This document shows, in pieces, positions 1,920 through 46,235 of a DNA stretch of 49,244 bases (position 1 is the first letter of the stretch; each line of letters starts with the position of its first letter). Source of the stretch: a virus. Lineage: Duplodnaviria; Caudoviricetes. Location of the stretch: positions 1-49,244 of the IMG/VR virus record IMGVR_UViG_3300006169_000024; one strand, given 5' to 3'. A program made the translations under genes and the position numbers. The notes beneath the pieces are model-generated. The model searched no databases. It had not been told where the DNA came from and saw only the letters and a program-made list of their open reading frames with translations.

Positions 1920-1951
1920 GGCGGGGAGGGGGCGCTCCCCTTCGCCTTATT
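1920..1951 (+). terminator. Imperfect GC hairpin after the MCP gene, running into motif copy 1
   Basis: ggcggggag-ggggcg-ctccccttcgcc followed by ttatt. Confidence 0.45.
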
Positions 1952-1966
1952 ACAAATTGCAAAAAG
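1946..1966. promoter_or_regulatory. 21-bp palindromic motif, copy 1
   Basis: cttattacaaattgcaaaaag, abuts the RBS of gene 1976. Confidence 0.8.
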
Positions 1967-1975
1967 GGGGAGTCG

Positions 1976-2233
1976 ATGGCCAGGAGAAGCTGCGCACTGA
2001 TTGGTACGGGTGCGGGACCGAAGGTGCATGTGCGCGGAAGCGCTGCGGCGAAGGTGTCAGGGCTACACGACGGCGAGAGGTGTGTGGTGCGCCGCTTCAG
2101 TGCTAGTGGTCATATCGACTCCCGGTTTCTGGACCAGAATGATACGCACTTTCTGGGCTCGTGCGATTTCGTGGAGGTGGAGTACAGCGGCAAGAACAAG
2201 CACTTTTCCTGCGTTATCTTGATCGGAGTCTGA
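1976..2233 (+). CDS. Hypothetical protein (85 aa)
   Basis: GGGGAG RBS; fills the gap between MCP and adaptor genes. Confidence 0.55.
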   Translation: MARRSCALIGTGAGPKVHVRGSAAAKVSGLHDGERCVVRRFSASGHIDSRFLDQNDTHFLGSCDFVEVEYSGKNKHFSCVILIGV

Positions 2234-2234
2234 A

Positions 2235-2993
2235 ATGCCCTTCACGATTCTAGATCCTACGGCTGCCGCGGCGGCGCCAGTCACCACGCAGGGATCGCCG
2301 CTGACCTCACAGGGCTACACGCTGGACGCCTTTCACAAGGAACTGCAGCTTCTGTTGCAGGACCGTGACGATGTAGACACGCCGCAGCTCACCTCATGGA
2401 TCAACCAGTCGTATACTGACGTTTGCACCAGCATCGACCTGGATGAGCTGAAGGGCAGTATTGCCATTACCCTGGTTGCGGGGCAGGCTCTCTACAGGCT
2501 CCCCTACGTGGTGAGCCATGTGCTAGGGGCAGCGATTGTGCTGCCTACGACTGTGAACGTCAATGGAGGGTATCCGTTGGATAAGGGCGATCTTTCGTCC
2601 TACAGGGCACTGATGGAGGAGTCGGGCGACCCTGAGTTTTTCTTCAGGCATGGCGACATGCTGGTGTTCTGGCCGACGCCCGATGCGGCCAGGACAGTGG
2701 CGGTGGACTTCAGGCTGCGGCCGGTGTGGATGACTGACCTTACGCACAGTCCGCTGCTGGGCCTGGAGTGGCACGAGGTGATTCTGCTGGGCGCGCGGTA
2801 CAGGGGTTTCAGCGCCAACCTGGAGTGGGACAAAGCGGTTCCGGCGGAGCAGGAATACCTGAGGCTGCTGCGGCGCCGGACCAACCGGGAGGCGACGGAG
2901 CACGAGGGGCGGGTGGTGCTTTCGTCTGTGCCGAGGAGGCTGGAGGATGTTCGGCGGCGCGTGGTGAGGCGCTCTTCGCTGGAGCCTGAGTAA
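2235..2993 (+). CDS. Head-tail adaptor / tail tubular protein A-like
   Basis: Position after MCP; WINQSY, LVAGQALYRLP, FWPTPD, WHEVILLGA patterns typical of podovirus adaptors. Confidence 0.6.
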   Translation: MPFTILDPTAAAAAPVTTQGSPLTSQGYTLDAFHKELQLLLQDRDDVDTPQLTSWINQSYTDVCTSIDLDELKGSIAITLVAGQALYRLPYVVSHVLGAAIVLPTTVNVNGGYPLDKGDLSSYRALMEESGDPEFFFRHGDMLVFWPTPDAARTVAVDFRLRPVWMTDLTHSPLLGLEWHEVILLGARYRGFSANLEWDKAVPAEQEYLRLLRRRTNREATEHEGRVVLSSVPRRLEDVRRRVVRRSSLEPE

Positions 2994-4708
2994 TGGCAAA
3001 CTACAGGAGAGACCTTGGCCGAGGGGGCTACGGCACCTACGGCGAAGGGCAGCGACTTGACCCAGAGACGCTGCCCAAGCTTGAGTGGGACACCTACAAC
3101 AGCTTCAAGGGTGGCTACAACAGCAGCGACTCGCGTCAAAACACGCCTGCTGGCTTTAGTCCCTATAGCTGTGACGTGGAGGTGACGGCGAACGACAGGC
3201 TGCGTCGTGCTCCGGGGGTGCTGGTGGCGGAGGCGCTGCCGGGGCATAGCCCTGTGCAGATGGTGATGCACACCAGCCTGGGCTATGTGCCGGAGCTTCT
3301 ACTTTTTGATCCGCCCTACATGGGCATCAGGGGGGCAAGCGGCGCAACTACGTGGTACAACGTCGGGCTTCCAGCGGCGCCGCGGGGCTTCGCCCACACG
3401 CACTTTGGGGAGGAGCTGATATTTTCCAGTGGAGCGGGGTCGGTTTACAGGAGGCTTCCGGGAGGTACCGCGCTTACGGCGCTACCGCAGGCGCCTCCGG
3501 CAGAAACCTACGCCACGTTTGGCTCCAGGGTGTTCGCTGGCAATGTACTGTCGGGCGGGACGCAGGAGCCGCTGGGCATCATGTGGAGTGCTGCGAACAG
3601 CGACTCCGGAGACTGGAGTGGCAGTGGCAGCTCTTACGAGCTGCTGGTAAGCAACACAGGGGCGCACGAGAAGATTGTGGCGATGCTTCCGCTGAGCTTC
3701 GACATCATGGCTATCATGTGTCGGCACAGCGTGTGGGTGGGTCTGCGAACGGGGCAGCTGGAGCGACCTGCTGATTTCCAGGCACGGAAGGCTGCGGGGG
3801 CCATTCACGACAGGGCGTGCGCCCTGGTGGGGCAGGCGGTAGCCTACCTGTCGGACGACGGTGTGAGGCTCTTCGACGGAAACGTGAGCAGCATAATTTC
3901 ACAGGAAATCAACGCCGATCTCCTTCCGTTGGACCAGGCAGCACTGGAGTCCTACGTGGTTTACTACCACGAGAAAACCCAGAAGCTCTATGTGCTGACG
4001 CCTGATGGTACCTGGATAAGGGACATGTTCTACCAGCGGTGGGAGAGGCGGTCGCTGGTGGCGAAGGATGCCTCGGTATATCCTACGTCGGTGACGATTG
4101 GGGGAGTGCCGCGCACGACGGACTTCTACAACCTGTTCTTCTTGCTGGACAACCAGGCTGCGGCGCGGGTGCTAGGGCTGGAGTCGCATGATGCAAGCGA
4201 CAACGCTGGCGTAGCCATGACGCCCCTGTGGGAGTTTCCACTGAAGCAGGGTAGGTATGGCACGCAGCTGGTGACGCACAGCCAGGCGATGCTCAACTAC
4301 AGCGGCGCAGGCAGCATCAAGCTCTATCATCCAGACACCGAGGGCGACTACGTAGAAACCAGAAGGGTTGAGCTGCCGACGGCAACGAACAGGTGGCTGA
4401 CCACAGGGCTCGGCGCCACTGGAACGGGGCTTGGCTCGAGGCTGGAGATTCTCGCCGGGGACGTGGAGGTTATTGAGCTTCAAACTGGATTTGTTGTCCG
4501 TGGTCCCAGGCGAGAGCGCCGGGTTCCGGCGTGGCCTACGGAGGTGGCACCTGGCGTCTACGAGCACACGACCTCCGACACGAGGGACGCGGAGTGGATG
4601 TACGACAGCGCTACGGGTCACTACGTGCTCACGCCTTCGGAGCTGGTCCCGCCCGATGCAGTGGTTGCCAGGCTCGCCCTTGTGGGTAACACCGTCCAGG
4701 AGTATTGA
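2993..4708 (+). CDS. Tail tubular protein B / nozzle-like (571 aa)
   Basis: TAATG coupling to the adaptor gene; beta-propeller-like repeats (F.SRVFAG, IMWS, YLSDDGVRLFDG, ISQEI). Confidence 0.6.
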   Translation: MANYRRDLGRGGYGTYGEGQRLDPETLPKLEWDTYNSFKGGYNSSDSRQNTPAGFSPYSCDVEVTANDRLRRAPGVLVAEALPGHSPVQMVMHTSLGYVPELLLFDPPYMGIRGASGATTWYNVGLPAAPRGFAHTHFGEELIFSSGAGSVYRRLPGGTALTALPQAPPAETYATFGSRVFAGNVLSGGTQEPLGIMWSAANSDSGDWSGSGSSYELLVSNTGAHEKIVAMLPLSFDIMAIMCRHSVWVGLRTGQLERPADFQARKAAGAIHDRACALVGQAVAYLSDDGVRLFDGNVSSIISQEINADLLPLDQAALESYVVYYHEKTQKLYVLTPDGTWIRDMFYQRWERRSLVAKDASVYPTSVTIGGVPRTTDFYNLFFLLDNQAAARVLGLESHDASDNAGVAMTPLWEFPLKQGRYGTQLVTHSQAMLNYSGAGSIKLYHPDTEGDYVETRRVELPTATNRWLTTGLGATGTGLGSRLEILAGDVEVIELQTGFVVRGPRRERRVPAWPTEVAPGVYEHTTSDTRDAEWMYDSATGHYVLTPSELVPPDAVVARLALVGNTVQEY

Positions 4709-9384: not shown

Positions 9385-9405
9385 CTTTTTACAAATTGTA
9401 AAAAG
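9385..9405. promoter_or_regulatory. 21-bp palindromic motif, copy 2
   Basis: ctttttacaaattgtaaaaag (perfect arms), immediately followed by ATG 9406. Confidence 0.85.
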
Positions 9406-11867: not shown

Positions 11868-12890
11868 ATGGCGGCAGGTGGAAGCCCGATTCAGAACTTC
11901 CTGGAAAGCTACTTCCAGATCGCGCAGTTCCAGCAGCGAGAAAAACAGATGGAGCAGCAGGCCTACCAATTTGGTAGGCAAGAGGCTTTGCAGCAGCGGC
12001 AGATGGAGAACGCGGAGCTGGAAAGCTTCGCGCAGCGGCTGCAGCAGGTACGGAATCCGCAGGAAGCACAGGCGCTGGGTCAGTTCTACGCCTCGAGGAA
12101 TCCCGGGATGGCGCCTGCCATTGGGTCGCTGATCGACAACACGGTGACGAACCTGCAGACTCAGCTGGCCAGCGCTGCGCAGAACTTCACCGACCAGCAG
12201 ATGTCCGGCGCCGCAGCTGCTGCCCTTGGCATCGGGCCTACATGGGGCCAAACGGAGCAGAGTAGGCAGTACGAACAGACCTTCGCCCGGGGGGTTAAGG
12301 AAAGTGATCGTGCCTACAACGAGAACGTTCGGCAGTTCGGTGTCAACGCTGGCTTTGAGGGCCGACGTCTGGACCTGTCGCAACAGCAGCTGGGTCTGGG
12401 ATGGGCTCAGCTTCAGCAGCAGGGAGAGTTGGGTCAGATGGGTGTGATGGCCCAGATTGGATATCTGCCCTCAATGATGGCTGGGGAGCTTTCCGGACGA
12501 AAGAGCGAGCTGCAGGCGCAGCTAGGAATGGCGCGCAATCCGGAGGCACGGGCGTCGATTCAGCGGGAAATTGACGACATAAGCGCACAGATGGGCAGGC
12601 TCGGGCAGTTCACCTCGGCATTCCTCAACCGTGGGCAGGGTGGCGGCGCCGCGGGCGGGATTGAGCTGAATCAGCTGCTGAGTGCGCGCCAGCAGGCTGA
12701 GGACAACATCCGCGAGGCGAAGGACGCCGGATCTCGGCAGGCAGCCATTGCTGGCTACGAGCAGCTTCAGAGCTTTATTGCCCAGTATCTGGGCACGGCT
12801 CAGCCGGGGCTTCGCTTTGATCCTACGTGGTTCGGTTTCGGCGGCGGCGAGGCGGTCTTCGTTCCCAACGCTCACCAGCCCAAGCGATGA
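11868..12890 (+). CDS. Internal virion/ejection protein 2 (340 aa)
   Basis: AAGGAGG RBS; Q-rich helical composition; position in the ejection cluster. Confidence 0.65.
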   Translation: MAAGGSPIQNFLESYFQIAQFQQREKQMEQQAYQFGRQEALQQRQMENAELESFAQRLQQVRNPQEAQALGQFYASRNPGMAPAIGSLIDNTVTNLQTQLASAAQNFTDQQMSGAAAAALGIGPTWGQTEQSRQYEQTFARGVKESDRAYNENVRQFGVNAGFEGRRLDLSQQQLGLGWAQLQQQGELGQMGVMAQIGYLPSMMAGELSGRKSELQAQLGMARNPEARASIQREIDDISAQMGRLGQFTSAFLNRGQGGGAAGGIELNQLLSARQQAEDNIREAKDAGSRQAAIAGYEQLQSFIAQYLGTAQPGLRFDPTWFGFGGGEAVFVPNAHQPKR

Positions 12891-15800
12891 TTAATCCAGC
12901 ATTCAGCGCCTCGGCATACGAACGCTATCGTCAGCAGCGGCAGGAGGGTCTTAACCGGACCCTCCGCCAGCTGGCTTTGTCGAGTGTCATTCGAAGTGAG
13001 CTGCCTATGGCGCCGCCGGAATGGACCTACGACATTGCTGGGCCGCTGATGCGAGAGCAGCCGGAGGAACAGGTTCGTGAACTGGTGAACGTGCAACAGA
13101 CGCTGCCCCGTGAGTACGACGAGCTTCTCGGGCAAGCCGACTACTTCGGGATTGCCAATCCGGAGCGGATGCCAGCTGACCAGCTGCTGGGGCTGGTGCA
13201 GGAGAGGTTTCGGGAGTCTCGGGAGTACTTCGAGAGGAATCCGCAAAGCGCTGCAGCTTTCAGGGACAACCTTTTCTATCTGCAGGGCTCGGCGGGACTC
13301 GATACCTTTTTGGAAACGGCACAGCGGATTCCCTTTGTGGGAGACCTGATCCACGACATGCAGGCTACCCGCGCCGCGGAACGCTGGCTGTCGCGCTACC
13401 AGACAGGCCTGGCGGCCCGTGTCGGAGAAACTCCGGCAAACATCGCAAAGGGCATAGGCACTGTGGCCAGCTATGCCGTCCCGGCTACAGCGGCGTGGAA
13501 ATTCGTTGCTGCGGCGGGGATGCTTCCTGAAGTAGCGGCAGGTTCGCGGCTGTCGGGGCTGGTGCGTGGAGCCCTCCAGGGTGGATTCAGCGAATGGCTC
13601 ATCCAGGGCGGCGGTGACGCTCCCATACCGGAGCGGGCGCTGAACATCGCCCTAGGAGCTGCCGGAGGCGCTGGCGCTGCGGCGGGCGGTACCTTCGGCG
13701 CGGCGGTTGCAGGCGGAGGCGTCGGCGCTATTGCAGGCAACGTGGCATCCGGAGGCGACCCTCGCGCCACGGCTGGTGGTGCACTCCTGGGAGCGCTTGG
13801 CGCCGCGGGCTACATGCGCCGTGCGCAGCGCAGCTTCCCGTCGAAGGCGCTGAGCATCTACCAGACTCGGGACGGCTATCGTCAGTATGGCGAGGGATTC
13901 GACTACTGGACGGACACCAGCCCGGAGGGCTACATTTCCTCCGGCCGGACCATGCTTCCCCCCGTTGGGGGTGGAGGCACGGCGCCGCTGCAGCCTCCCC
14001 CGCCGCCGCCGAAGCTCCTCCCTTCGGGAAGTCCTGCTGTGGCGGTGGTCAACGGGCAGCCGGTGCCGATCGAGACTGGACCGCTGCCTTCTCCGAAGGA
14101 TGCCTTCCTGGCGGAGTTCGATGAGATCATCAAGGCCCTGGACTTCCTTCCGCAGGAGACGGCCGCCGGACTCTATCATGCGCCCATCACTCCGCAGGTT
14201 CAGCAGACTGCAGCCTTGGCAAACGCCATAACCTACGTCCCCGTGGGACCTGGGATCATCAAGGTACCGGAGGTTGCGAAGAACTTCCAGGCTCGGGTTG
14301 GTCCTCCGGGTGCGGTTGCACCTATTTACAATTTGCAAATAGCGGGGCCGCTTCCGCAGAGTCAGGTGCAGGATACCTACTACCACGGCGGCGTACAATC
14401 CTATGAAAACATCGACCTGACGAAAGCAGGCAAGAACGACAGCGGCGCGGAGTACTCGCTCTACGGCCCGGCATACTACAGCACGAAGTCCTCGGCGGTG
14501 GCCGGTGGCTCGGGCGACTGGTGGGAGTTTGATCGGAGTCCCTACAGCGCGTGGGGGGCTGAGGGCGGTGGCTACGCTGCGGCGGGCGGGAAGATCAACG
14601 TGGACGAGGCTCAGGCCTACCAGTTGAAATTGCAGGATAACGTGCGCCGCGCTGAGGCGCGCGATCCCACGCTTATTGATGAGCTGGGCTACAAGGCACC
14701 CACCGGGATGGACTGGTTTGACTACTGGACCCCTGTGATCAGGGACAACGCCCAGTGGTCTATTGGAGTTGACGGGGTTATTGCGCCCAATGTGAGGCCG
14801 ATGCGGCTGCTCGTGAGAAATCCGTTGCGGATTGACTACGAGCTTCCGCTGGAGCAGTACGACAACATCCTCGATGAGCTGAGGAAGCAGTTTGGGGACT
14901 ATGCTGCAGACGAGTACGAGAACTCCTTCATGAATCGGGAGTTCCAGGAGGATACCGGCTACAAGTTTGCGCCTGGCGCCAATCAGGGAGGCAATGCTTA
15001 CTGGGCACTGGTGGACTTTCTGGGCGCTCGCAGCTCTGCAAACAGGTTCTTGAAGTCTGCGGGCTTCGACGGGATCATTCACTGGGGCGGACGGAAGTCT
15101 ACGCCTCACGAGGTGGTGGCTGTGTTCGATCCGTCGCAGGTATACTCGGCCTTTGGGCCTGCAGGCAAGGCGCAGATGACTGGGGTGAAGATCTATCAGG
15201 CAACAACGGCTCGTCCGCCTTCGGCGCCGCAGATCGCCGCGGCGCGCTGGGTGGAGGGGAAGCTCCAGAAACACCCCGGCGCCTATGAGATGGAGCCCGG
15301 GCTGGTGAGGGTGCCTGCGGAGAGCTTCCGTACGAGCGGCAGCGCTCCGGTGACGGACCTCTACTATCGTGGACCGCTGAGTGGCACGCAGGCTCCGGTG
15401 ACATACCACGGAGCGAAGTACGGGTTTCCCTACTGGGACATGAGCAAGGTCGGTGAGACTGACGGCAGCGCCGATGCCGCCTTCTGGGGGCCGGGGATCT
15501 ACTCTTCGGAGCTGACGAAGACGGCGGTGGGTACGCCCTCCTCCTGGGACGAGCACGTTCCGGGGCTGCCGATGAGTCAGCAGGGTCCGTATGAAACTCA
15601 GGGCTACGCGGGCGGTGGTGGGACTCCGGCGATTGCCTACGATGTCTCAAGGTATGAGGCCTCGCAGAGGCTGCTCGCGCTAGCGCAGGCGAGGGATCCT
15701 CGGTACTACGACCCGAACAATCCTGATCTGAAAGCGGCTGGGGTATTCGTCAGCAGCTACTTCCATCCACCGCAGCCTGGTGATCCCTACAGCGGTGCTT

Positions 15801-19894: not shown

Positions 19895-19915
19895 CTATTT
19901 ACAATTTGTAAAAAG
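19895..19915. promoter_or_regulatory. 21-bp palindromic motif, copy 4, where the two gene arms converge
   Basis: ctatttacaatttgtaaaaag overlapping the stop of the last - strand gene. Confidence 0.85.
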
Positions 19916-25235: not shown

Positions 25236-27013
25236 GAGGCCTCCTCCGCAGGCTCCGTGGAGATAATCTTCTGGACTTCCTCTGGAGTGCAGGTTGTGGG
25301 GTCCAGCCCACCCATCTCCACGGCTGTGTCCAGCATCCGACAGACTTCCGAAAGCTCACCCTGGAGGTCGTCCTCATTGCTGCCGCGCAGCTGTGCCAGG
25401 TTGTGGCCGTCGTACTTGATGTAGCCCAGGAACTCTTTCCCGATGCGGAAGGTTTCGTACTGGAACACCTGGCCCGGACGACGCCCCGAAGGCTTCGGAG
25501 TGGTGCTCACCTCAACCTCCCCGGTGTCGTCCTCCGGAAGGGTCATGGCGAGCCCCTGCTCGTAGCGACGGAGCGAGGCCTCCACAGCTTCCTTCGTGAT
25601 CGGCTGCATGTACTGACGGATCTTCCCGTGGGCAAACGGCAGCATCTGCGGGTTCTTGTCGCAGCCCCACGCCACTCGACTGAGGCTCGCCGCCGCGGCA
25701 AGGCTGTTGCCGCTGCCGAAGAAGGTGTCGCACACCACGTCACCTGTGAAGGTGAAGCGCTCCACAAGCTCTCGGTAGAGGCTCATGGGCTTCTGGTTGG
25801 CATGGACTCGCTCGCTGCCGTACTCGGCGTCGTGGACGAGTACGTTGCTGCAGCCCGGTTTCATCAGCCTGCCCTTGCCCAGGTTGACTACGAGGATCAG
25901 CTCCATGAAGTTCTTCGCATGGAGGTGTGGGAACCTGGGTTGGTTTCGGCTGTTGGGCCTGTACCAGATCCAGGGGAAGGGCTCGGGTCGGAGGAATCGG
26001 CACTCACCAACGGAGGCCCCAGCGAGAGTGCAGCGAGCAGGATATTGCGCATGCCTGTAGGCGCCATGCACTGCGCAGCAGTCTTGGGCCAGCTCTTCGA
26101 TGTAGTCGTAGGTTTCCTTCCCGGCGAAGAACACCAGCCATCCTGTTTCCCGAGTGGCCTTCACCAGCTCCGGCAGAAGGTTCTTGTAAAGCTCCGCTGC
26201 TTTCTCCGGATCGTCGTCGTAGGACGACAGGTGCTCCCCTTCGGGGGTGAGAGACTTCTGCCCCTGCTTCCAGTAGTTGTAGCCATAAGGGCCGTCGAGG
26301 AGCATGAGGTCTACGCTGTTGGGCAGAAGCTTCCGCGTGAACTCCACAGCCTCCTCCGTACGGACGCGCTCTTCGATCGGCGCCACGGGAGCAGCGTAGG
26401 GCGCGGCGCCGTTGGTACTCCCCGGGGTGCTGGTGCCAAGCACCTGGGCGGCCCTGGTTTCATGTTGCTCCAGCAGCTTCCCAGCCTGCAGCGCCGCGTT
26501 CTTGCTACTTGCCTTGCGTAGCCCCGGGTTCTTCTCCAGGATCTTCGCCGTGGCTACGTCTCGGGAGAAGGTTGCCTGGGACTCACCCAGCTCTCGGGCG
26601 ATCTCACCGTCGGTGATGGAGGGATTTTGGAGTCTGCGGAGCTCCGCAATCTCGCGCTTCGCGTCCACCTCCTCCTGCCAGGTCATTGCCTTCCGTTTAA
26701 GGTTTTCGTTCAGTTCAAGTTGGCGGTGCTTGATCTGGTCCATCTCCTCCCGGCCGAAGGCCTCGATGGTTTCCCAGCCCAGCAGCGCCGCGGCGTTAAG
26801 CCTCCGCCCTCCGGCTACCAGCACCCACGGTTGGCCTTCGTAGTCGTCGAAGCCCTCTTCCTTCTCCACCTCCTCCCGGCCAGGAGGCCGGACGGTGATG
26901 GGAGTGATCTGCCCATTGTCCTTGAAATCGTTGAGGAGATCCTCCATCTCCGTCTTGCCGTAGTCCCTGCGGCGGCGCCGCCCGATGTAGATTTCATCCA
27001 GCCGCAGTTTCAT
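25232..27013 (-). CDS. ParB-like N-domain + HTH + beta-class N4/N6 DNA methyltransferase fusion (593 aa)
   Basis: GQITPITVR...LVAGGRRL...ELNENLKRKAMTWQE (ParB/Srx); EIARELGESQATFSR (HTH); LLDGPY (motif IV variant), HANQKP..L, VCDTFFGSGNS (motif I). Confidence 0.85.
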   Translation of the reverse strand: MKLRLDEIYIGRRRRRDYGKTEMEDLLNDFKDNGQITPITVRPPGREEVEKEEGFDDYEGQPWVLVAGGRRLNAAALLGWETIEAFGREEMDQIKHRQLELNENLKRKAMTWQEEVDAKREIAELRRLQNPSITDGEIARELGESQATFSRDVATAKILEKNPGLRKASSKNAALQAGKLLEQHETRAAQVLGTSTPGSTNGAAPYAAPVAPIEERVRTEEAVEFTRKLLPNSVDLMLLDGPYGYNYWKQGQKSLTPEGEHLSSYDDDPEKAAELYKNLLPELVKATRETGWLVFFAGKETYDYIEELAQDCCAVHGAYRHAQYPARCTLAGASVGECRFLRPEPFPWIWYRPNSRNQPRFPHLHAKNFMELILVVNLGKGRLMKPGCSNVLVHDAEYGSERVHANQKPMSLYRELVERFTFTGDVVCDTFFGSGNSLAAAASLSRVAWGCDKNPQMLPFAHGKIRQYMQPITKEAVEASLRRYEQGLAMTLPEDDTGEVEVSTTPKPSGRRPGQVFQYETFRIGKEFLGYIKYDGHNLAQLRGSNEDDLQGELSEVCRMLDTAVEMGGLDPTTCTPEEVQKIISTEPAEEAS

Positions 27014-27218: not shown

Positions 27219-27239
27219 CTCTTTGCAAATTGTAAAAAG
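27219..27239. promoter_or_regulatory. 21-bp palindromic motif, copy 5
   Basis: ctctttgcaaattgtaaaaag; 27 nt (27214-27240) identical to 31884-31910. Confidence 0.85.
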
Positions 27240-27240
27240 G

Positions 27241-29756: not shown

Positions 29757-29892
29757 CGGTGAGCACCTCGTCGTTGGAGTAGCGCTGGTCGCACTGTGGA
29801 CAGTACCAGCACCTGCTGGTGATTGACGGATAGGGCTCCAGTGCGTGTCCTACTGGGCACCGTTGGGAAAACTTGAAATTGGACTTGGGCAT
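29692..29892 (-). CDS. Small Zn-ribbon protein
   Basis: TGATG coupling; RCPVGH...WYCPQCD. Confidence 0.5.
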   Translation of the reverse strand: MPKSNFKFSQRCPVGHALEPYPSITSRCWYCPQCDQRYSNDEVLTDGAQGKDHLEPDAGPDRSPSS

Positions 29893-31878: not shown

Positions 31879-31888
31879 TCTCGCTTCC

Positions 31889-31909
31889 CTCTTTGCAAAT
31901 TGTAAAAAG
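31889..31909. promoter_or_regulatory. 21-bp palindromic motif, copy 6
   Basis: ctctttgcaaattgtaaaaag. Confidence 0.85.
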
Positions 31910-31924
31910 GATTGAGCGAAGCCC

Positions 31925-32134
31925 TCACCTCGCCCGGTTACCTTCCCACATGGAGCGGATCTGGGAGTCGATCACCTCCGAAACCTCGGGCATCTCCCGC
32001 GTGGCGTCGAGGAACGCAGAGAGACTGGAATTGATGAACCACTTCACGGCACCGTACTGGGGGAAGCGTCGCTTGAACTCGTCGTAGAGTTCCTGCGGAA
32101 CATCGCTCCCGAACTCGACTGTCGGGGCAGGCAT
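31925..32134 (-). CDS. Small protein, possible ribbon-helix-helix regulator (69 aa)
   Basis: GGAGG RBS; TVEFGSDVPQELYDEFKR...VKWFINSSL beta-alpha-alpha pattern; first gene after a consensus promoter. Confidence 0.5.
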   Translation of the reverse strand: MPAPTVEFGSDVPQELYDEFKRRFPQYGAVKWFINSSLSAFLDATREMPEVSEVIDSQIRSMWEGNRAR

Positions 32135-32182
32135 ACGAACCTCCGGGGTGGGGGACATGCGCGACATCGGGGGTACGCATGC

Positions 32183-32211
32183 AATATAACAGTCTGAGGA
32201 CGTTTTGTCAA
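32183..32211 (-). promoter_or_regulatory. Sigma70-type promoter with extended -10
   Basis: - strand TTGACA-N17-TATATT with TG at -15/-14. Confidence 0.8.
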
Positions 32212-32759
32212 GTCTGCCCACGCATCATGCATCGGCCAGGAGAACACACCGTTGGGCAACCAGGACACCAATCAGGCTGCGGAGCTTGCTGCTGGGCCAT
32301 GCCCATCATCTGTGAGAAGCGTGCGGCTTGCACCTGAAGCTGTTGCTGCGCAGCGCGCTGTTGTGCCATGAGCAGAAGTTCTCGTTGTAGTTGCTGCGAC
32401 ATGAATCGACAGCCGCCGACAGGACAGCCACCAGTCTGGCAGCCTACGCAGGACATGAAGCTTGGTTGAGTGGTCGCCAGCTGGCCAAGGGTGTTGATGT
32501 AGTTCTGCTGCGCAGCTTTCTCTTTTTCTCTACGCTCCCTGTCTGCGACACTCGAAGTGAGCATAGCGAACTCGTGCTCCAGCTGACGGTCCGCCGCAGT
32601 GAGGTTGTAGACCCAACGATCCTCCGGAGGAAAGTTGTAGGTTTGGGCCTGGAGGATCTTCTCCTCTGCAAGCTTCTCCGCCTGGGCGAGGCGCCGCTCG
32701 TGGTGGTCCCGGCGGAACCAGAACCACCACGCACGCACGAGGCGCCACAGCCTCCTCAC
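32208..32759 (-). CDS. Gln-rich protein with two four-Cys clusters (183 aa)
   Basis: GTGA coupling to the helicase stop; CVGCQTGGCPVGGC and CPGCPTVCSPGRC. Confidence 0.55.
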   Translation of the reverse strand: MRRLWRLVRAWWFWFRRDHHERRLAQAEKLAEEKILQAQTYNFPPEDRWVYNLTAADRQLEHEFAMLTSSVADRERREKEKAAQQNYINTLGQLATTQPSFMSCVGCQTGGCPVGGCRFMSQQLQRELLLMAQQRAAQQQLQVQAARFSQMMGMAQQQAPQPDWCPGCPTVCSPGRCMMRGQT

Positions 32760-34342
32760 CTCCGCTTCGCGGGAAGGATAACTTCGTAAAGGGTAGCCTT
32801 CGCCCGGGTGATGGCGACGTAGGCCAGGTTCTTCTCCTGCTCCTGCTGCCACGGCTGCTTCGCGTAGGGCGAAGGCATGTACTGGTTGCGCCCGTAGAGG
32901 AACACGTTGTCCCACTCCCGGCCCTTGGCCTTGTGGATGGTGGCGAGGGTGAGGTTGCGCACTCCGTCCTGGAACATGGAGGAGATCAGGTTGCGCAGCG
33001 GCTCCAGCCCGTCGTCGTCCTGGAAGTTCGTCATGAGGACGAAGAGGGTTTCCACCTTGTCCTCCGTGGCGCCGAGCTTCGCAGCCTTCTTGGGGTTCTC
33101 GTCGGCGCGTGCGCGCTCCTTCTCGAGGAACTCATCGAGCTTGGAGCGAAGCTCCTCGATGGTAGTGGCGCCGCGCCATTTCTTTGTGAGGGCGATGAGG
33201 CCCTGGCCCAGCTCACGTCCCTCTACGTGGCAGGGAATCCTGCGCTTCATGTAGCCGAAGGCTAGCTCCACGAGGGGCTTCATGTTGCGGCAGAGGATCG
33301 CGTCCTCGGCGCCGGGGGTGAGAGCCTGGAAGAGTGGAAGCTCCAACTCTACGACTGCGCCTTCCGGCGCCGACGGTGCAGCCTCAATGTGGGACACCAG
33401 CTGGCGGGCGTGCGCCACCACAGCCTTCGGGCACCTGTAGGTGACGGTAAGGGGAAGCTCCACGCAGCTGAACTCCCGGGTGATGAGATCGAGGGCGTCG
33501 CTGTCTGCGCCGGTGAATCCGTAGATCGCCTGGTGCCGGTCGCCCACAGCGACTACCCGCCCACCCGGGGCGAGGATGCGACGGACCATCTCCCGCCGCG
33601 CGGCGTTGGTGTCCTGCGCCTCGTCCACGAACACTACGGCGTACTTGTGGAAGAGGGCTCGGCGCAGCACGGGCAGATAAATCATGTCGTCGAAGTCGAT
33701 GATCTCCAGGCCTAGCTCGTTGCTGCGCGTCAGCGCCTGGAGGCACCAGGCGAGAGCGGTGTCGATGCTGGCATCGTCGGCGGGCTTGCGCTTCCACCTG
33801 TCGCCACCGTCGTCCTCGGCCAGCATGTCCTTCAGGTCGAAGTGGTCGATGATTTCCAGCCAGGGCTCGTCGTCCTCCATGTCGCAGAGGACACCGAAGA
33901 GCGACTGCTTCGCAATCGAGCAGGCCTTGGCTACGAAGGCCCGAAGGGCCTTGGGCACCCGGATCTGCTCCATCACCACGTCCATCTTGTTGGCATCCGT
34001 TCGGGCCTTCGGCGCCATGCCCTTCCAGGCACGGAGGCCCACGGAGTGGAAGGTCTTGGCCGCTACTTGCCCTTCGCTGATCCCCGCCGCGGCGAGCTTC
34101 CGGCCGATCTCGTCTGCGATGGCTCGGTTGAAGGCGAGGAACGCGCCGTTGGAGGCGACGAGTCGGGCCAGCTCCACAAGCGTCGTGGTCTTGCCGGCCC
34201 CCGCCACGGCCTCGATGGTGAGGTTGTCCCGCGATTCGCGGTAGCGTCGAAAGATTTCCTCTTGCTGTGGGGAGGGAGTGAAGCTCCGCGCCGTGGGCAC
34301 GTACTCCGGAACCTTCACGCCTCCCAAGTTGATCTTGCCCAT
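32756..34342 (-). CDS. UvrD/Rep-like superfamily 1 helicase (528 aa)
   Basis: EAVAGAGKTTT, LAFN, TFHS, VDEAQD, VGD..QAIYGF.GA, TYRCP, TIHKAKGREW, YVAITRAK. Confidence 0.92.
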   Translation of the reverse strand: MGKINLGGVKVPEYVPTARSFTPSPQQEEIFRRYRESRDNLTIEAVAGAGKTTTLVELARLVASNGAFLAFNRAIADEIGRKLAAAGISEGQVAAKTFHSVGLRAWKGMAPKARTDANKMDVVMEQIRVPKALRAFVAKACSIAKQSLFGVLCDMEDDEPWLEIIDHFDLKDMLAEDDGGDRWKRKPADDASIDTALAWCLQALTRSNELGLEIIDFDDMIYLPVLRRALFHKYAVVFVDEAQDTNAARREMVRRILAPGGRVVAVGDRHQAIYGFTGADSDALDLITREFSCVELPLTVTYRCPKAVVAHARQLVSHIEAAPSAPEGAVVELELPLFQALTPGAEDAILCRNMKPLVELAFGYMKRRIPCHVEGRELGQGLIALTKKWRGATTIEELRSKLDEFLEKERARADENPKKAAKLGATEDKVETLFVLMTNFQDDDGLEPLRNLISSMFQDGVRNLTLATIHKAKGREWDNVFLYGRNQYMPSPYAKQPWQQEQEKNLAYVAITRAKATLYEVILPAKRR

Positions 34343-35579: not shown

Positions 35580-35600
35580 CTTTTTGCAATTTGTAAAAAG
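35580..35600. promoter_or_regulatory. 21-bp palindromic motif, copy 7
   Basis: ctttttgcaatttgtaaaaag. Confidence 0.85.
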
Positions 35601-38338: not shown

Positions 38339-38495
38339 CGTTGTGCTCCTCTCGTTCGGGGTAGTCGTAGTCGGGTGCTTCGTCGAACCAGTTGCTGACG
38401 GTGCCCACCGCCTTGCAATGGGGGCATTGGTACCAGGTGCGGTTGTCCATCCAGTCGCGCTTGCACGCGCTGCAGTTGTGGTCCATGCAGGCCAT
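38331..38495 (-). CDS. Small Zn-ribbon protein (54 aa)
   Basis: GGAGGAG RBS, TAATG coupling; HNCSAC...CPHC. Confidence 0.55.
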   Translation of the reverse strand: MACMDHNCSACKRDWMDNRTWYQCPHCKAVGTVSNWFDEAPDYDYPEREEHNDD

Positions 38496-38836
38496 TAGCG
38501 TAGCTCCTCCTCCAGGTTGTAGATGCCGGGCCAGGCCATACCGCGCCATACGATGCGCTTGATGGTGGCCTCGCTCAGGCCATACCGCTGGGCCAGGGTG
38601 TCGATGGTCGTCGGGTTCTGCTTGTCGGTGTGCAGGTAGAAGATCTCCCAGTTCCGGTCAGCGAAGCTGTTGGCACCGTGCATACGCAGGCGGTGCATCT
38701 GCCGCCCCCTGGAGGTGACGGAGGGAAACCCGCACACCGGGCACAGCAGCCTGCGCATCCTGGGCTTCGCCCGGTCGGCGTGCCGCAGGTTCTCGCCGGG
38801 GAACTGCACGAGGTTGTCGATCTTCAGTGCGCCCAT
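38495..38836 (-). CDS. C2H2 zinc finger + Mor-like HTH transcription regulator (113 aa)
   Basis: CPVC-x12-H-x4-H followed by RNWEIF...TIDTLAQRYGLSEATIKRIV. Confidence 0.7.
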   Translation of the reverse strand: MGALKIDNLVQFPGENLRHADRAKPRMRRLLCPVCGFPSVTSRGRQMHRLRMHGANSFADRNWEIFYLHTDKQNPTTIDTLAQRYGLSEATIKRIVWRGMAWPGIYNLEEELR

Positions 38837-39314: not shown

Positions 39315-39335
39315 CTATTTGCAAATTGTAAAAAG
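39315..39335. promoter_or_regulatory. 21-bp palindromic motif, copy 8
   Basis: ctatttgcaaattgtaaaaag. Confidence 0.85.
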
Positions 39336-40702: not shown

Positions 40703-40731
40703 AATATAATCGTCTGGTCCACGTTTGTCAA
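40703..40731 (-). promoter_or_regulatory. Sigma70-type early promoter
   Basis: - strand TTGACA-N17-TATATT, near-copy of the promoter at 32183-32211. Confidence 0.8.
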
Positions 40732-40789: not shown

Positions 40790-41046
40790 TTCCGTCCGTC
40801 CATCCATCCATCGGCCTCCGGCCGGGGGCGTCCATCCACCAGGGCAGTCCACCCACCAGGGCAGGGTTGGTGCCCCGGGCCTGCCCCCGCTAGTAGTTAG
40901 TTAGAAAAAAAAATTTTTAAAAACTGACTACTGCACAGGCCTGCCCCCGGGCGTCGCCGGGCAGGGTTGGCACAGGTCAGGGTTGGATGTCCCCCGTGGA
41001 CGGACGTGTGCCCCCGAACGGGCGGTGGATGGATGGATGGGCGGAA
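40790..41046. other. Candidate replication origin: AT-rich core, short direct repeats, flanking inverted repeats
   Basis: 24-nt IR (21/24) at 40790-40813 and 41023-41046; CAGGGTTGG x3; GGCCTGCCCCCG x2; A/T core 40891-40931. Confidence 0.5.
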
Positions 41047-41080
41047 CGTGTGGATTGCTCCCAGGCGCGAAGCGCCCCCC

Positions 41081-41101
41081 CTGTTTGCAAATTGCAAAAA
41101 G
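41081..41101. promoter_or_regulatory. 21-bp palindromic motif, copy 9
   Basis: ctgtttgcaaattgcaaaaag. Confidence 0.85.
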
Positions 41102-41139
41102 GAAAGCGCCATCGAGCCTGGATTGCTCGATGGCGCTTT
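41096..41139 (-). terminator. Intrinsic terminator (15-bp perfect stem)
   Basis: aaagcgccatcgagc-ctggatt-gctcgatggcgcttt; on the - strand followed by ccttttt from motif copy 9. Confidence 0.8.
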
Positions 41140-41189
41140 GCGTCGGGTCGCGCGAGGGTTACTACACTACTCTACGGCTCTGCCGGGCT

Positions 41190-41720
41190 TCAGCCCGCGT
41201 CGGCCTCGGCGTCCATCGCATCCAGCTCCGCCTCGGTGAACTGGCCACCGGCCAGGATCATGCCCCGAACCTTCGCGCGCTGGGTGCGCGGAAGCGCCAG
41301 GTACATGTCCCGGGCAGTGGCGCGGGCGCTGTCGCGGTCGGCCTCCGCCTTGGCCTTCGCGGCCTCGGCCGCGGCAACCTTCCCGCTCTTGCCCTCACCG
41401 CGCTTGCGCGGCGCACCCAGGCGGAACTCCTCCGCCTTCTTCTCGACGTCGGCCCGAACCTCCTCCGCGTCGCGGTCCTTGTACGCCTCGTCGTTCAGCG
41501 TGTCCTTGATAAACTTCTGAATCGTGAGGCTGAGCCCCTGGCCGTTGATCGCGTTGAGGATTACCTCGTCCGCGTTGACGCCTTCGGCGGTGCTCACCCG
41601 GCTCTGCCGGAACTCGTCGAGCGTCGTGGGCAGCGTGTACGTGAACTTCAGCCCCTTGAAGCGGGCCGGATACTCCAGTCCGTTGTCCTTCTTGAGCTCG
41701 AAAGTGGTCTGCTGTGCCAT
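41190..41720 (-). CDS. Monocistronic early protein, Lys/Ala/Glu-rich (176 aa)
   Basis: GAGGG RBS; own promoter (41852-41880) and terminator (41096-41139). Confidence 0.7.
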   Translation of the reverse strand: MAQQTTFELKKDNGLEYPARFKGLKFTYTLPTTLDEFRQSRVSTAEGVNADEVILNAINGQGLSLTIQKFIKDTLNDEAYKDRDAEEVRADVEKKAEEFRLGAPRKRGEGKSGKVAAAEAAKAKAEADRDSARATARDMYLALPRTQRAKVRGMILAGGQFTEAELDAMDAEADAG

Positions 41721-41851
41721 TGTGCCCTCGTTTGGGAGAAGTGTCGTGGTTGAGGGGGCGAATGCCCCCGTTGCCCTCCGGCTTCCCCCTCGCGTGACCC
41801 GTGTTGTCAATCAGCCCCGTGCGGCCCCGCCGCCCCGTGCGATCTACCACC

Positions 41852-41880
41852 AATGTAACCCCCGGCGAGCTGGATGTCAA
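41852..41880 (-). promoter_or_regulatory. Sigma70-type early promoter
   Basis: - strand TTGACA-N17-TACATT flanked by GTGGTAG direct repeats. Confidence 0.7.
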
Positions 41881-41981
41881 CACCTACCACACAAGTGTTT
41901 CCACCCCGTTCCCCGCCCGGAGCGCGCACACGCGAATGCAACCTCCATGCCAAAAGAGGTGATTCTCCTGCCCTGGGACAC

Positions 41982-42062
41982 TTTTTCCGAAAAATCGCTC
42001 CCGGGCCGCAGTGCCTTTTTCGGAAAAGTTTGTTTCCCGCAGCGCCGGGTTTTTCCAAAAAA
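41982..42062. repeat. Three TTTTTC-N2-AAAA units at exact 34-bp period
   Basis: tttttccgaaaaa 41982, tttttcggaaaa 42016, tttttccaaaaaa 42050. Confidence 0.75.
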
Positions 42063-42414
42063 CTGACCCTTCGGTTTTTCAGCGGTTTCGCGCCAGGATG
42101 CCCCACGCCGCGCGATCGCCTGGGGCGAGGGTAGTGGTGGCCCCGGCGGCGCCGCGCCCCGCACAGGCGATCCTCGACGGGAACTGTTGTTCCCCCGGGG
42201 AGGCTTGCTTGCTGGCCAGCAAGTGGCGCGCAGCGCCCCTGGCGCCCCAGGCACCTGCGCCCTCGCGCCTCGCGCCTCTGGCGCCTGACCCGACCCCAAA
42301 AACCGGGAGTCGCCAGATGGCGAAACAGCTATCTCCTGATCGCCACAGATCAGGGAAAACCAAGGTGCGCAACTCCGGACCTCCGAAGTCCCGCAAGTGC
42401 CCCCTGGGCGGGGA

Positions 42415-42443
42415 TTGCGGCCTCGGCCTAGGGCCGTTAACTT
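42415..42443 (+). promoter_or_regulatory. Possible weak promoter for the morphogenesis arm
   Basis: TTGCGG-N17-TAACTT upstream of motif copy 10 and the first + strand gene. Confidence 0.3.
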
Positions 42444-42476
42444 TCAACTGCGCCGGAGGCGCGCGGCGGGGCGCCA

Positions 42477-42497
42477 CTATTTGCAATTTGCAAAAAG
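42477..42497. promoter_or_regulatory. 21-bp palindromic motif, copy 10
   Basis: ctatttgcaatttgcaaaaag merging into the AAGGAG RBS. Confidence 0.85.
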
Positions 42498-42507
42498 GAG
42501 AAGTCCA

Positions 42508-43148: not shown

Positions 43149-43871
43149 ATGAGACTAGAGAAACTTGGACTCGCCGCGGGGGCGCTGCAACCCTCCCTCA
43201 GGACTCCGGAGAACGACGCGGAGCTTGAGGCGCTCTTCAGCGCCGCCCTGGAAGGGCGCCTACCGCGGCAACGGGAGCTGAAACCCTACGAGCCTCAGAC
43301 GCTCAACGAGCGCCACCTGGCAATTGTCATGGCGAGGCACGCGGGCTTCAAGCAGCGCCAAATTGCCCAGGTTTTCGGTGCCACGGAGACTAACATCAGC
43401 ATCATAGTCAACCATCCCGACGCCCAGTATATCCTGGCACGGCTTTCGGCGCGGCGCGGCGGGGAGGAAACGCCCATTCAGCGCCGGCTGGCGGAGCTAA
43501 ACGAGCCTGCGCTGGACGCAATCGAGGCTGTTTTCGACCCGGAGCTGGAGATTGACCCAGTAAAACGGGCCAACATGGGCTTCAAGGTGCTGGAGGCCAA
43601 CGGGCATTTCAGGCCTAAGAAGGTCGAACACGAGCACAACGTGCAGCTGAAGGGCTCGGAGCAGCATCTTGGGCTGCTCGCCGCGGCGCTGCAGGAGAGT
43701 CGGGCGCTGCCGGAGCCTATTATCATGGAGTTCGACCCAGAAACGAAGACTTTCTACGCTCCTGGGAGCGGAGTCGAGGGCAGCTCGCGACCCGAAACTC
43801 TTCCTTCGGACACTGGGGCGCCCTCACCCAGTGGCTCCCAGGAGCAGCCTTCGGCTGAGGAGGGGTCTTGA
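43149..43871 (+). CDS. Probable terminase small subunit (HTH)
   Basis: LNERHLAI...GFKQRQIAQVFGATETNISIIVN HTH; KVEHEHNV tail; directly upstream of TerL. Confidence 0.55.
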   Translation: MRLEKLGLAAGALQPSLRTPENDAELEALFSAALEGRLPRQRELKPYEPQTLNERHLAIVMARHAGFKQRQIAQVFGATETNISIIVNHPDAQYILARLSARRGGEETPIQRRLAELNEPALDAIEAVFDPELEIDPVKRANMGFKVLEANGHFRPKKVEHEHNVQLKGSEQHLGLLAAALQESRALPEPIIMEFDPETKTFYAPGSGVEGSSRPETLPSDTGAPSPSGSQEQPSAEEGS

Positions 43872-45376: not shown

Positions 45377-45377
45377 T

Positions 45378-45677
45378 ATGACATTTGCGCAGACGGTGGC
45401 AATCACCCCCGATACGTATATATCAGTAGTACTGCTTATCGCTGTGGTCGGCGCCGCGGTGAAGATCACCCTGCTGCTGGCAGAGATAAAGTTTGAACTC
45501 AAGGGCGTTCGCAGGATGGGCAAGCAGGTGGCCCACATGGAGTCTCACCTGCTGCTCTTCGAGGAGGACGTGAACAACCTCTTCGGTGCTCTGCGCAGCA
45601 TGGACACACCAGAGAAGCTGCCCGAGTTGACGAGGAGGGCTCGCTTCCGGCCCTTTCCCGTGGAGGATAACGAATGA
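45378..45677 (+). CDS. Single-TM membrane protein
   Basis: Hydrophobic N-terminus plus coiled coil. Confidence 0.55.
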   Translation: MTFAQTVAITPDTYISVVLLIAVVGAAVKITLLLAEIKFELKGVRRMGKQVAHMESHLLLFEEDVNNLFGALRSMDTPEKLPELTRRARFRPFPVEDNE

Positions 45678-45949
45678 CCCAGATGATCCGTACGGCCTGG
45701 AAGCTGCGGGGCGCGCTCTCTGCGGCGTGGATCCTGAGTTGTGCGTTTGTGTGGGCCTTGCGGCGCGCCTGGTTGAGTACTATCGGACTGGGAGCTGGCT
45801 TCGAGCATTTGCCGCCTCTAGAGCGTTTCAATATCTATTCCGATCTCGAGGCCATGACTCGGGTTCTCCAGGGCGTTATCTTCTTCCTCCTGGTGAGCCT
45901 CCACAGTCTTAGAAACGTCTTCCGTCACTTCGACTCAGGAGACTGCTGA
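45674..45949 (+). CDS. Two-TM membrane protein
   Basis: GGAGG RBS, ATGA coupling, two hydrophobic segments. Confidence 0.5.
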   Translation: MTQMIRTAWKLRGALSAAWILSCAFVWALRRAWLSTIGLGAGFEHLPPLERFNIYSDLEAMTRVLQGVIFFLLVSLHSLRNVFRHFDSGDC

Positions 45950-46212
45950 TGCGCTACGAACCTGCGCTACGTCACGGGATCATCGTGGGCCTTCTGGCCC
46001 TGGTGCTGCACTGGCTGGGGCTGGAATTCTCGGAGGCTCACCGCGGCGCCGTGGACAACCTGGTGGAGGCGCTGGTCGTGCTGCTGCCACTCGGCCAGGC
46101 GCTTGCGCAGGCCCTCCTCACGCGCCGTCGTGTGGTGCCTGTGGCAAAGATCGAGGATGGCGACTACATTGTCCCGCTGGTTCACCCGGGGCGGCACTAC
46201 GAAGGCCACTAA
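45949..46212 (+). CDS. Holin-like two-TM protein
   Basis: EPAL..GIIVGLLALV...GL.....AL...RRRVVPV resembles small holins. Confidence 0.5.
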   Translation: MRYEPALRHGIIVGLLALVLHWLGLEFSEAHRGAVDNLVEALVVLLPLGQALAQALLTRRRVVPVAKIEDGDYIVPLVHPGRHYEGH

Positions 46213-46214
46213 GT

Positions 46215-46235
46215 CTATTTGCAAATTGCAAAAAG
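46215..46235. promoter_or_regulatory. 21-bp palindromic motif, copy 11
   Basis: ctatttgcaaattgcaaaaag, 7 nt before the portal ATG. Confidence 0.85.

What the first reader, a model, noticed from the sequence alone, without database searches (positions are those of the whole stretch)
1946..46235. Genome-wide 21-bp AT-rich quasi-palindrome, 11 copies, with strand-fixed asymmetry
Seen: consensus CTnTTTRCAAWTTGYAAAAAG at 1946, 9385, 14322, 19895, 27219, 31889, 35580, 39315, 41081, 42477 and 46215 in an otherwise GC-rich genome. Gaps around the circle are 1.4-7.4 kb. Ten of 11 copies keep the invariant AAAAAG arm on the right of the + strand while the left arm varies, in both the + and - transcribed arms. 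Eight copies sit directly before an RBS or ATG. Inference: a dimeric-protein site spanning early, replication and structural modules. Polarity tied to the chromosome rather than to transcription suggests something beyond a simple operator, such as a loading, DNA-entry or packaging signal, or a stoperator-like network in a phage with no visible lysogeny module.
Basis: partly seen in the sequence, partly recalled or inferred. Interest (0 to 1): 0.85.

Follow-up and report, generated by a model that had tools for sequence, protein, structure and literature searches.

The report
Docking sites for phage ParB-methylase
This soil-type phage carries eleven evenly spread copies of a 21-base palindrome, also kept in its relatives, that are likely docking sites for its own ParB-type DNA-clamp protein fused to a DNA methylase, which would be a way of aiming a modifying enzyme at the phage's own genome.

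Summary
The 11 palindromes are real (chance 0.01). They are more evenly spaced than random (largest gap 7.4 kb, p=0.005). The claimed chromosome-fixed polarity is weak: only 8 copies are asymmetric, overlapping terminator tails and ribosome-binding sites can explain it, and relatives show no such bias.

Related podoviruses keep the site family at matching positions. Dispersed palindrome families were found in 22 of 25 genomes with a ParB-HTH-methyltransferase fusion and 0 of 13 without it; one uniform blind scan gave 14 of 23 versus 0 of 8. The genomes are not independent.

The sites follow this gene, not the capsid/portal module, TerS, the RHH-like gene or the C2H2-Mor gene. Site bases co-vary with recognition-helix residues 146 and 151; 146 aligns with ParB's known specificity residue R173.

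Best reading: parS/OB-like loading sites for the fusion 25232-27013 (about 0.8 for the binder), likely spreading a methylase over phage DNA (about 0.5). Binding, nucleotide gating and methylation are untested. My searches found no paper pairing this fusion with sites. This scan's earlier notes reached the same idea on at least 14 other genomes.

The parts
1946..1966 (.). palindrome copy 1, after the major capsid gene and a GC hairpin, before RBS/ATG 1976
   Evidence: same position in G002
9385..9405 (.). copy 2, between stop 9383 and ATG 9406 (GNAT gene, start of the ejection-protein block); outer arms symmetric
   Evidence: G002 and G003 have a site before the same block
14322..14342 (.). copy 3, inside the 2,334-aa gene, read in frame, halving a 10.5-kb gap
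   Evidence: G002 has a degenerate copy inside its 1,995-aa homologous ORF
19895..19915 (.). copy 4, where the two transcribed arms converge; follows a minus-strand hairpin
   Evidence: same zone in G002
27219..27239 (.). copy 5, 216 bp (centre) upstream of the ParB-MTase start
   Evidence: a site lies within 1 kb upstream of this gene in 16 of 18 genomes
31889..31909 (.). copy 6, after the RHH-like gene; supplies the T-tract of a minus-strand terminator-like hairpin
35580..35600 (.). copy 7, between stop 35602 and ATG 35579 (minus strand); outer arms symmetric
39315..39335 (.). copy 8, T-tract of a 12-bp minus-strand hairpin, 7 nt before ATG 39307
41081..41101 (.). copy 9, T-tract of a 15-bp minus-strand hairpin after the first early gene
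42477..42497 (.). copy 10, overlaps the RBS of the first plus-arm gene (ATG 42508)
   Evidence: same position in G001, G002, L042, L043, L060
46215..46235 (.). copy 11, before the portal gene
   Evidence: a site precedes the portal gene in L005, L006, L008, L009, L038, L042, L044, L045
25232..27013 (-). ParB-NTD + HTH + beta-class N6/N4 DNA methyltransferase fusion, 593 aa; inferred binder
   Evidence: Pfam PF02195, PF01555; PDB sequence hits Spo0J, Noc, ParB, KorB, CcrM; AlphaFold model pLDDT 88; Foldseek
26531..26611 (-). HTH (residues about 135-161); recognition helix GESQATFSRD, Q146 aligned to ParB R173, R151 to N178
   Evidence: residue roles from PMC7383237 passages
25604..26380 (-). 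methyltransferase domain (about residues 212-470), DGPY and FFGSG motifs; predicted homodimer interface at residues 299-391
31925..32134 (-). small RHH-like gene (fold read by eye); close clade only; possible partner, not the general binder
43149..43871 (+). terminase small subunit with HTH; rival binder, disfavoured

Best explanation
The eleven 21-bp palindromes are real, evenly spread and conserved in related phages, and are likely parS-like docking sites where a dimer of the phage's ParB-HTH-methyltransferase (25232-27013) would load and then spread along phage DNA to methylate it. Shown: the sites, their spacing, their conservation at matching positions, their co-occurrence with this gene and its domain make-up. 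Inferred, about 0.8: the HTH reads the site, with residue 146 and R151 setting particular bases. Predicted: the methyltransferase domains dimerise and take the place of ParB's C-terminal dimerisation domain. Inferred by analogy to ParB/KorB, about 0.5 overall: nucleotide binding closes the N-terminal gate and the ring slides a few kb from each site, so sites every 2-8 kb would cover the genome and confine methylation to phage DNA (anti-restriction or a self mark). The apparent polarity in this genome is likely secondary reuse of the arms as terminator T-tracts and RBS.
For: (1) All 11 close-relative loci (TerL at least 41% identical) that held enough flank showed CT-NWTTRC-N5-GYAAWN-AG; L046 showed a different 17-bp pair, and L007, L036, L037, L039-41 and L056 showed none. 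(2) One uniform blind scan found a strong family in 14 of 23 fusion-bearing genomes and 0 of 8 without the fusion. With transferred matrices, targeted consensus searches and 7 more GenBank genomes the tally is 22 of 25 versus 0 of 13. (3) G023 and G025 share the window's capsid, adaptor, portal and TerL clade but lack both fusion and sites, while LS06, G007, G009 and G012 have sites and the fusion but no detected window-type capsid. (4) Kuura, PaMx41 and Tiera have the TerS-HTH, no ParB and no site family. (5) A site lies within 1 kb upstream of the gene in 16 of 18 genomes; chance per genome is 0.13-0.39. (6) Among 19 genomes R151 matches C at position -3 without exception (8 vs 11). H146 matches G at -6 (5 vs 14) and is the only perfect column of 405; G017 and the G008-G014 group carry it on separate branches. 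Position 146 aligns with R173/Q, a proven ParB/Noc specificity residue (PMC7383237). (7) A prediction noted beforehand, that G010 would carry a G009-like site, held: 3 strong and 1 weak site. (8) GxRR and ENxxR motifs are near invariant. (9) The homodimer model scored 0.65 against a best control of 0.35 (mark reached by 20 of 30 true pairs and 1 of 23 single chains; runs share at least 71% of contacts; pLDDT at least 75), with the interface in the MTase domain. This may be from memory of solved beta-class MTase dimers. (10) The largest gap is 4.7-8.5 kb in 9 of 11 near-complete genomes.
Against: No binding, nucleotide or methylation data. The genomes are related, so the counts overstate independence; several negatives are fragments or distant. 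I searched fusion-bearing genomes harder than negatives. Mel-JY34 has only a weak candidate (5 hits vs null mean 0.85, max 3), and G019/G020 have none. Control proteins also hold perfect predictor columns (DNA polymerase: 7 and 3 of 737; TerS has some in its own helix among 12 rows), and G at -7 had no perfect predictor. Even spacing fails in G004 (14.4-kb gap), G013 (12.2 kb) and G005 (16.3 kb), and is individually significant for the largest gap in only 5 of 11 genomes. The residues matching ParB's hydrolysis Q52/E93 and cytosine-binding S68 are changed in the window protein (GGRR, not GERR). PMC12704722 lists no N6N4-MTase fusion among its CTP binders, and PMC13229309 found NTP-site mutations did not impair another phage ParB. 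Motif IV reads DGPY, not DPPY. The window still lacks GGGCCC (0 vs 33 expected), so methylation is not blanket protection.
Confidence: 0.55

Rival explanations
1. Same binder, but its main job is transcription control: a KorB- or BisD-like clamp that represses early promoters or activates late genes from distant sites, possibly locked by the small RHH-like protein; methylation is secondary.
For: KorB acts from OB sites up to more than 1 kb from promoters with a small partner (PMC11790492, section 4); BisD activates promoters after sliding from bisS (PMC12409273 abstract). The three strong sigma-70 promoters (41880, 40731, 32211) each lie 312-607 bp from a site. The late arm has no sigma-70-like promoter. 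A site sits upstream of the fusion gene in 16 of 18 genomes.
Against: No site overlaps a strong promoter; most follow terminators or sit at stop-start junctions, and one is deep inside a 7-kb gene. The MTase motifs are kept across homologues of about 24% identity. The RHH-like gene was not detected in the 12 distant-clade genomes that have sites.
Confidence: 0.22
2. The sites bind the terminase small subunit or another virion/packaging protein and serve DNA packaging or entry.
For: The TerS-HTH is present in all near-complete site-bearing genomes. Some TerS helix columns predict site bases among 12 rows.
Against: Kuura, PaMx41 and Tiera have the TerS-HTH and no sites. G023/G025 share the head module and have no sites. 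G004 and G013 have the same site arms but unlike TerS helices, while G007 and G012 have near-identical TerS helices and different sites. No polarity in relatives.
Confidence: 0.08
3. Same binder, used to organise, bridge or position replicating phage DNA (Noc- or partition-like), with the methylase as a passenger.
For: The closest sequence matches are Spo0J, Noc and ParB; the gene sits in the replication module next to SSB-like, Sak4 and polymerase genes.
Against: No ParA, integrase or plasmid replicon was found among 64 scanned proteins; sites are dispersed rather than clustered.
Confidence: 0.1
4. A host regulator box or an intrinsic DNA/RNA structure.
For: Several copies double as terminator tails or RBS.
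Against: The exact pattern gave 84 scattered hits in 185,579 genomes, nearly all one per genome and in unrelated taxa. Of 5 followed up, none showed a regulon. The site sequence differs between phage lineages in step with the phage protein. Arm changes are not compensatory.
Confidence: 0.05

Closest known systems
KorB and its OB operators on plasmid RK2 (PMC11790492; section 4 and passages read)
   Same: ParB-family NTD plus HTH (PDB 8qa8/8qa9 hits); palindromic sites acting away from promoters; clamp loads at the site and slides. That OB occurs about 12 times around RK2 is recalled, not read.
   Different: KorB has a plain C-terminal dimerisation domain and a 16-bp site, and also partitions a plasmid. 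Here the C-terminus is a DNA methyltransferase, sites are 21-23 bp, the host element is a podovirus without detected ParA, and no repression is shown.
Chromosomal ParB-parS and Noc-NBS (PMC7383237, passages read)
   Same: GxRR and ENxxR motifs, HTH geometry, and variation at the position equal to specificity residue 173.
   Different: 16-bp sites versus 21-23 bp with a 5-7 bp loose centre; no ParA; altered Box I and hydrolysis residues; methylase fusion.
BisD-bisS of ICEclc (PMC12409273, abstract read)
   Same: ParB-like clamp on a mobile element carrying an extra effector domain and loading at its own parS-like sites.
   Different: Two sites, about 50-kb sliding and a transcription-activator domain, versus 11 dispersed sites and a methylase.
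Phage ParB-CTPase/N6N4-methyltransferase fusions (PMC12704722) and ParB-dependent T-dioxygenases (PMC13229309); passages read
   Same: The same domain fusion is reported as frequent in phages, function unknown. The idea that ParB directs modification enzymes to loci is cited there as unconfirmed.
   Different: The passages read give no DNA site for the fusions; the dioxygenase-associated ParBs lack an HTH.
Dispersed phage operators: Cluster O mycobacteriophage 17-bp dyad (31 copies, PMC6439249 passages); L5 stoperators and phiC31 conserved inverted repeats (recalled)
   Same: Many short sites at gene junctions across a phage genome.
   Different: Stoperators are asymmetric and bound by an immunity repressor (recalled); no such repressor co-occurs here, and the sites track a ParB-MTase.

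Membership tests
ParB/KorB/Noc CTP-gated clamp with parS-like sites | ParB N-terminal fold with Box II GxxR and Box III ENxxR | tested here: met
   AGGRR and ELNENLKR; G68, R71, E100, E103, N104, R107 invariant in 52 sequences; Spo0J/Noc/ParB hits E 1e-15 to 1e-11
ParB/KorB/Noc CTP-gated clamp with parS-like sites | canonical Box I cytosine-binding and hydrolysis residues (MxParB S68, G73, Q52, E93) | tested here: inconclusive
   G kept; S, Q and E positions changed in the window protein, S kept in distant homologues (residue list from PMC13229309)
ParB/KorB/Noc CTP-gated clamp with parS-like sites | central HTH DNA-binding domain | tested here: met
   helices 135-142 and 146-161 in the model; aligns to the Spo0J and Noc HTH
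ParB/KorB/Noc CTP-gated clamp with parS-like sites | C-terminal dimerisation closing the ring | tested here: inconclusive
   no ParB CTD; predicted dimer through the MTase domain, 0.65 vs control 0.35, possibly from memory
ParB/KorB/Noc CTP-gated clamp with parS-like sites | specific binding to a palindrome, NTP binding and sliding | not testable with these tools
   only co-occurrence and covariation
ParABS partition system | ParA partner and clustered centromere | tested here: not met
   no ParA among 64 proteins scanned; sites dispersed
beta-class N6-A/N4-C DNA methyltransferase | motif IV (D/S)PP(Y/F) before motif I FxGxG, with the beta-class fold | tested here: met
   DGPY (variant; DPPY in most homologues) then FFGSG; Foldseek top hits CcrM, M.PvuII, M.RsrI
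beta-class N6-A/N4-C DNA methyltransferase | methylation activity and target sequence | not testable with these tools
   no reads listed for this genome
Stoperator network (mycobacteriophage L5 type, recalled) | asymmetric site oriented to transcription and bound by an immunity repressor | tested here: not met
   site is palindromic, no orientation bias in relatives; no integrase or repressor family hit
Polar packaging/DNA-entry signal | conserved strand polarity and linkage to the virion module | tested here: not met

The most novel reading that the evidence does not exclude
A self-addressed DNA-modification machine: a nucleotide-gated ParB ring whose lower gate is a methyltransferase dimer, loaded only at phage-specific palindromes spaced to tile the genome, so that sliding delivers processive methylation to phage DNA and not host DNA, with site and recognition helix co-evolving as a private address code across a large podovirus group.
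Probability: 0.4. Interest if true: 0.85.

Novelty: new variant of a known kind. Interest (0 to 1): 0.66.

Why it matters
ParB-methyltransferase fusions are reported as common in phages with unknown function (PMC12704722). The idea that ParB aims DNA-modifying enzymes at chosen DNA is cited as unconfirmed (PMC13229309). Candidate sites, a two-residue recognition rule and a cultured example (Vibrio splendidus phage VS-ABTNL-3, 4 exact sites) make this testable with standard binding and methylome assays. If sliding is confirmed, it extends nucleotide-gated clamps from segregation and transcription to targeted DNA modification.

Tried and rejected
Searches that found nothing: megablast and single-protein searches found no close relatives. 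The first genome-contig scan found no prophage relative. No tRNA genes. No sequencing run was listed for 25000-34000 (no RNA holder listed). No earlier scan notes on this genome or protein. The ESM Atlas search of the RHH-like protein gave unnamed clusters only.

Readings rejected: RNA/ssDNA hairpin (non-compensatory arms). Promoter element: the sites do not overlap the strong promoters and abut start codons; two 9/12 consensus matches use a site's TTTACA. C2H2-Mor 38495-38836 as binder (no homologue in 31 genomes). Host box: 84 scattered hits, 5 followed up, none phage-related or regulon-like.

Errors corrected: two mis-typed consensus spacers gave false blanks and were corrected (Mel-JY34, one search then 63; VS-ABTNL-3, one search then 110).

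Rows left out of counts: G003 (structural fragment, 2 sites, ParB region absent). G024, G026, G030, G031 (no ParB hit, not scanned). ON073792 (plasmid-like record). The shorter ParB loci L151-L184 not fetched as whole records. Six near-duplicate genomes were left out of the trees. G028 (no ParB) has 4-5 palindromes confined to its first 5.2 kb and was counted as not genome-wide. EBPR podovirus 3 has a 4-copy repeat judged a library linker.

Literature: searches found no paper pairing the fusion with sites or describing these repeats. PMC10370329 (Desulfofustis phage; term search of the main text) has no ParB mention. Supplements were not read and may bear on this.
Full report
Observation. The window is a circularly assembled 49.2-kb, 62% GC phage. 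Its genes include an SU10-like portal and adaptor, very large ejection-type genes, PolA with a UDG domain, a DUF3987 primase, Sak4 and UvrD. Spacing is more even than random: largest gap 7,439 bp against 13.5 kb expected, p=0.005. The two arms change independently, including A-C mismatches, so this is a double-stranded site for a dimer, not a hairpin. Copies sit at stop-start junctions or just after GC hairpins. One is read in frame inside the 2,334-aa gene despite its GC3 of 0.74. None overlaps the three strong sigma-70 promoters.

Polarity. Only 8 copies are asymmetric in the outer arm, all varying on the left (p=0.008); the centre base splits 7:4. Five of the eight follow a minus-strand hairpin for which the site's CTTTTT is the T-tract. 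The other three run into a plus-strand purine-rich RBS. The terminator scan overall is not above shuffles, so this is a plausible account, not a proof. In 17 relatives the worse arm falls left or right without a consistent side. I reject chromosome-fixed polarity as the key property.

Relatives. TerL homologues of 48-69% identity are common in metagenomes. An alignment of 50 of them fetched 31 viral and 80 metagenome loci. Eleven close loci carry CT-NWTTRC-N5-GYAAWN-AG at matching places: before the portal gene, after the capsid gene, before the 42508 homologue and before the ejection block. Several short close loci show none, and L046 shows a different pair. The complete relative G002 has 9 perfect-armed copies plus a degenerate one inside its longest gene. 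More distant loci (L050, L059, L062, L027) have their own palindrome families, but their ParB status could not be read.

Which protein. G001 and G002 share with the window a ParB-HTH-methyltransferase, an RHH-like gene, TerS and two others, but not the C2H2-Mor gene. An alignment of 52 fusion homologues fetched 39 loci. I read 31 whole records or fragments, and later 7 more from GenBank. One blind scan applied equally found strong families in 14 of 23 fusion-bearing genomes and 0 of 8 without. Transferring matrices, and targeted searches, raised this to 22 of 25 versus 0 of 13 (Fisher p about 1e-7, not valid as independent counts). Exceptions are Mel-JY34 (weak) and G019/G020 (none). The sites follow the fusion across virion modules. 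G023/G025 have the window's head genes and TerL clade but neither fusion nor sites. Desulfofustis phage LS06-2018-MD01 and G007-G016 have both, with no detected window-type capsid. The RHH-like gene is confined to the close clade. TerS is widespread, but three TerS-positive, ParB-negative phages lack sites. In 16 of 18 genomes a site lies 56-924 bp upstream of the fusion gene; G017's family was found from that rule.

Recognition code. The HTH aligns to Spo0J GKARSTVANAL and Noc GKGQSTIANKL, making Q146 the equivalent of R173 and R151 of N178. R173/Q is a proven specificity switch and N178 a DNA contact (PMC7383237, passages). Across 19 genomes R151 matches C(-3) perfectly and H146 matches G(-6) perfectly, the latter on two separate branches. 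G013 is in the distant clade in all four trees yet has G004-like arms and a similar helix; this may be shared ancestry. G006 is in the close clade yet has K146 and the TGTT-type 23-bp site of the distant clade. The control tempers this: about 0.4-1% of columns in the polymerase also predict these traits perfectly, and G(-7) had no perfect predictor. What counts is that the hits fall in the eight-residue helix at positions known to touch DNA; the traits were chosen by eye.

Mechanism. The model (pLDDT 88) shows ParB NTD, HTH, a helical linker, a beta-class MTase and a small extra C-terminal domain. Foldseek returns CcrM, M.PvuII and M.RsrI, then Noc, ParB and KorB. A two-copy prediction of residues 1-478 scored 0.65 against a best control of 0.35 (20 of 30 true pairs and 1 of 23 single chains reach the mark; at least 71% shared contacts; pLDDT at least 75). 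The interface is in the MTase, and the pass may reflect memory of solved dimers. In ParB the C-terminal dimer closes the ring and the clamp spreads from parS (PMC12704722, passages). That the sliding DNA sits between the HTH and that dimer is recalled; here the MTase would face it. I therefore commit to site-loaded, spreading methylation of phage DNA, about 0.5, with about 0.8 on the binder. Against it: gaps of 12-16 kb in G004, G005 and G013; altered Box I and hydrolysis residues; no CTP binding reported for such fusions in the passages read; continued avoidance of some 6-bp palindromes. KorB/BisD-like transcription control is the main rival.

Novelty. Clamps with dispersed or distal sites are known (KorB, Noc, BisD), the domain fusion is catalogued, and the targeting idea has been voiced. 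Searches found no paper giving these fusions a site; the library omits most subscription papers and I read no supplements. The scan's earlier notes report the same pairing on at least 14 other genomes. My reading was set before that call, and I do not count those notes as support. Verdict: a new variant of a known kind, interest 0.66.

Noticed in passing
window 30128-30478 (-): Type I Thoeris inhibitor Tad4 match (PF25186, E 2e-29); not detected in the 31 relatives.
   Followed up: no
window 29421-29756 (-): Phage-encoded GroES-like co-chaperonin, shared by the close clade.
   Followed up: no
window 12887-19891 (+): 2,334-aa ejection-type protein with a weak ART-PolyVal hit below cut-off.
   Followed up: no
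window 41852-41880, 40703-40731, 32183-32211 (-): Three strong sigma-70 promoters, all on the early arm; none for the late arm and no RNA polymerase or clear sigma gene, so late activation is unexplained.
   Followed up: partly
window 40800-42500: Gene-poor divergence region with an A/T run near 40900 and two sites 1.4 kb apart; may hold the physical genome ends. Sites are also denser near record ends in G002 and LS06.
   Followed up: no
window 25232-25480 (-): Extra C-terminal beta-sheet plus two-helix domain (residues about 515-586) on the fusion, seen only in the closest homologues.
   Followed up: no
G012:36704-37357 and G014:23169-23630: A second, stand-alone ParB-like gene of about 250 aa beside the fusion.
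   Followed up: no
L334 (MF497422) 174, 6569, 23360, 38801: Cultured Vibrio splendidus phage with the fusion and four exact CAATCG-N6-CGATTG sites; a possible test system.
   Followed up: partly
L337 (JF412296) 9394, 13809, 29046, 38965: Four copies of a NotI-containing repeat, likely a library linker left in the assembly.
   Followed up: partly
L331, L332 (G035): A Clostridia MAG has a roughly 250-bp repeat, often in tandem pairs, holding a similar palindrome 17 times; looks unrelated.
   Followed up: partly
L340 (ON073792): Record named as a cyanophage reads like a plasmid with polysaccharide genes and ParA/ParB.
   Followed up: no
G028:184-5234: ParB-negative phage with 4-5 palindromes clustered in its first 5 kb, operator-like.
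   Followed up: no
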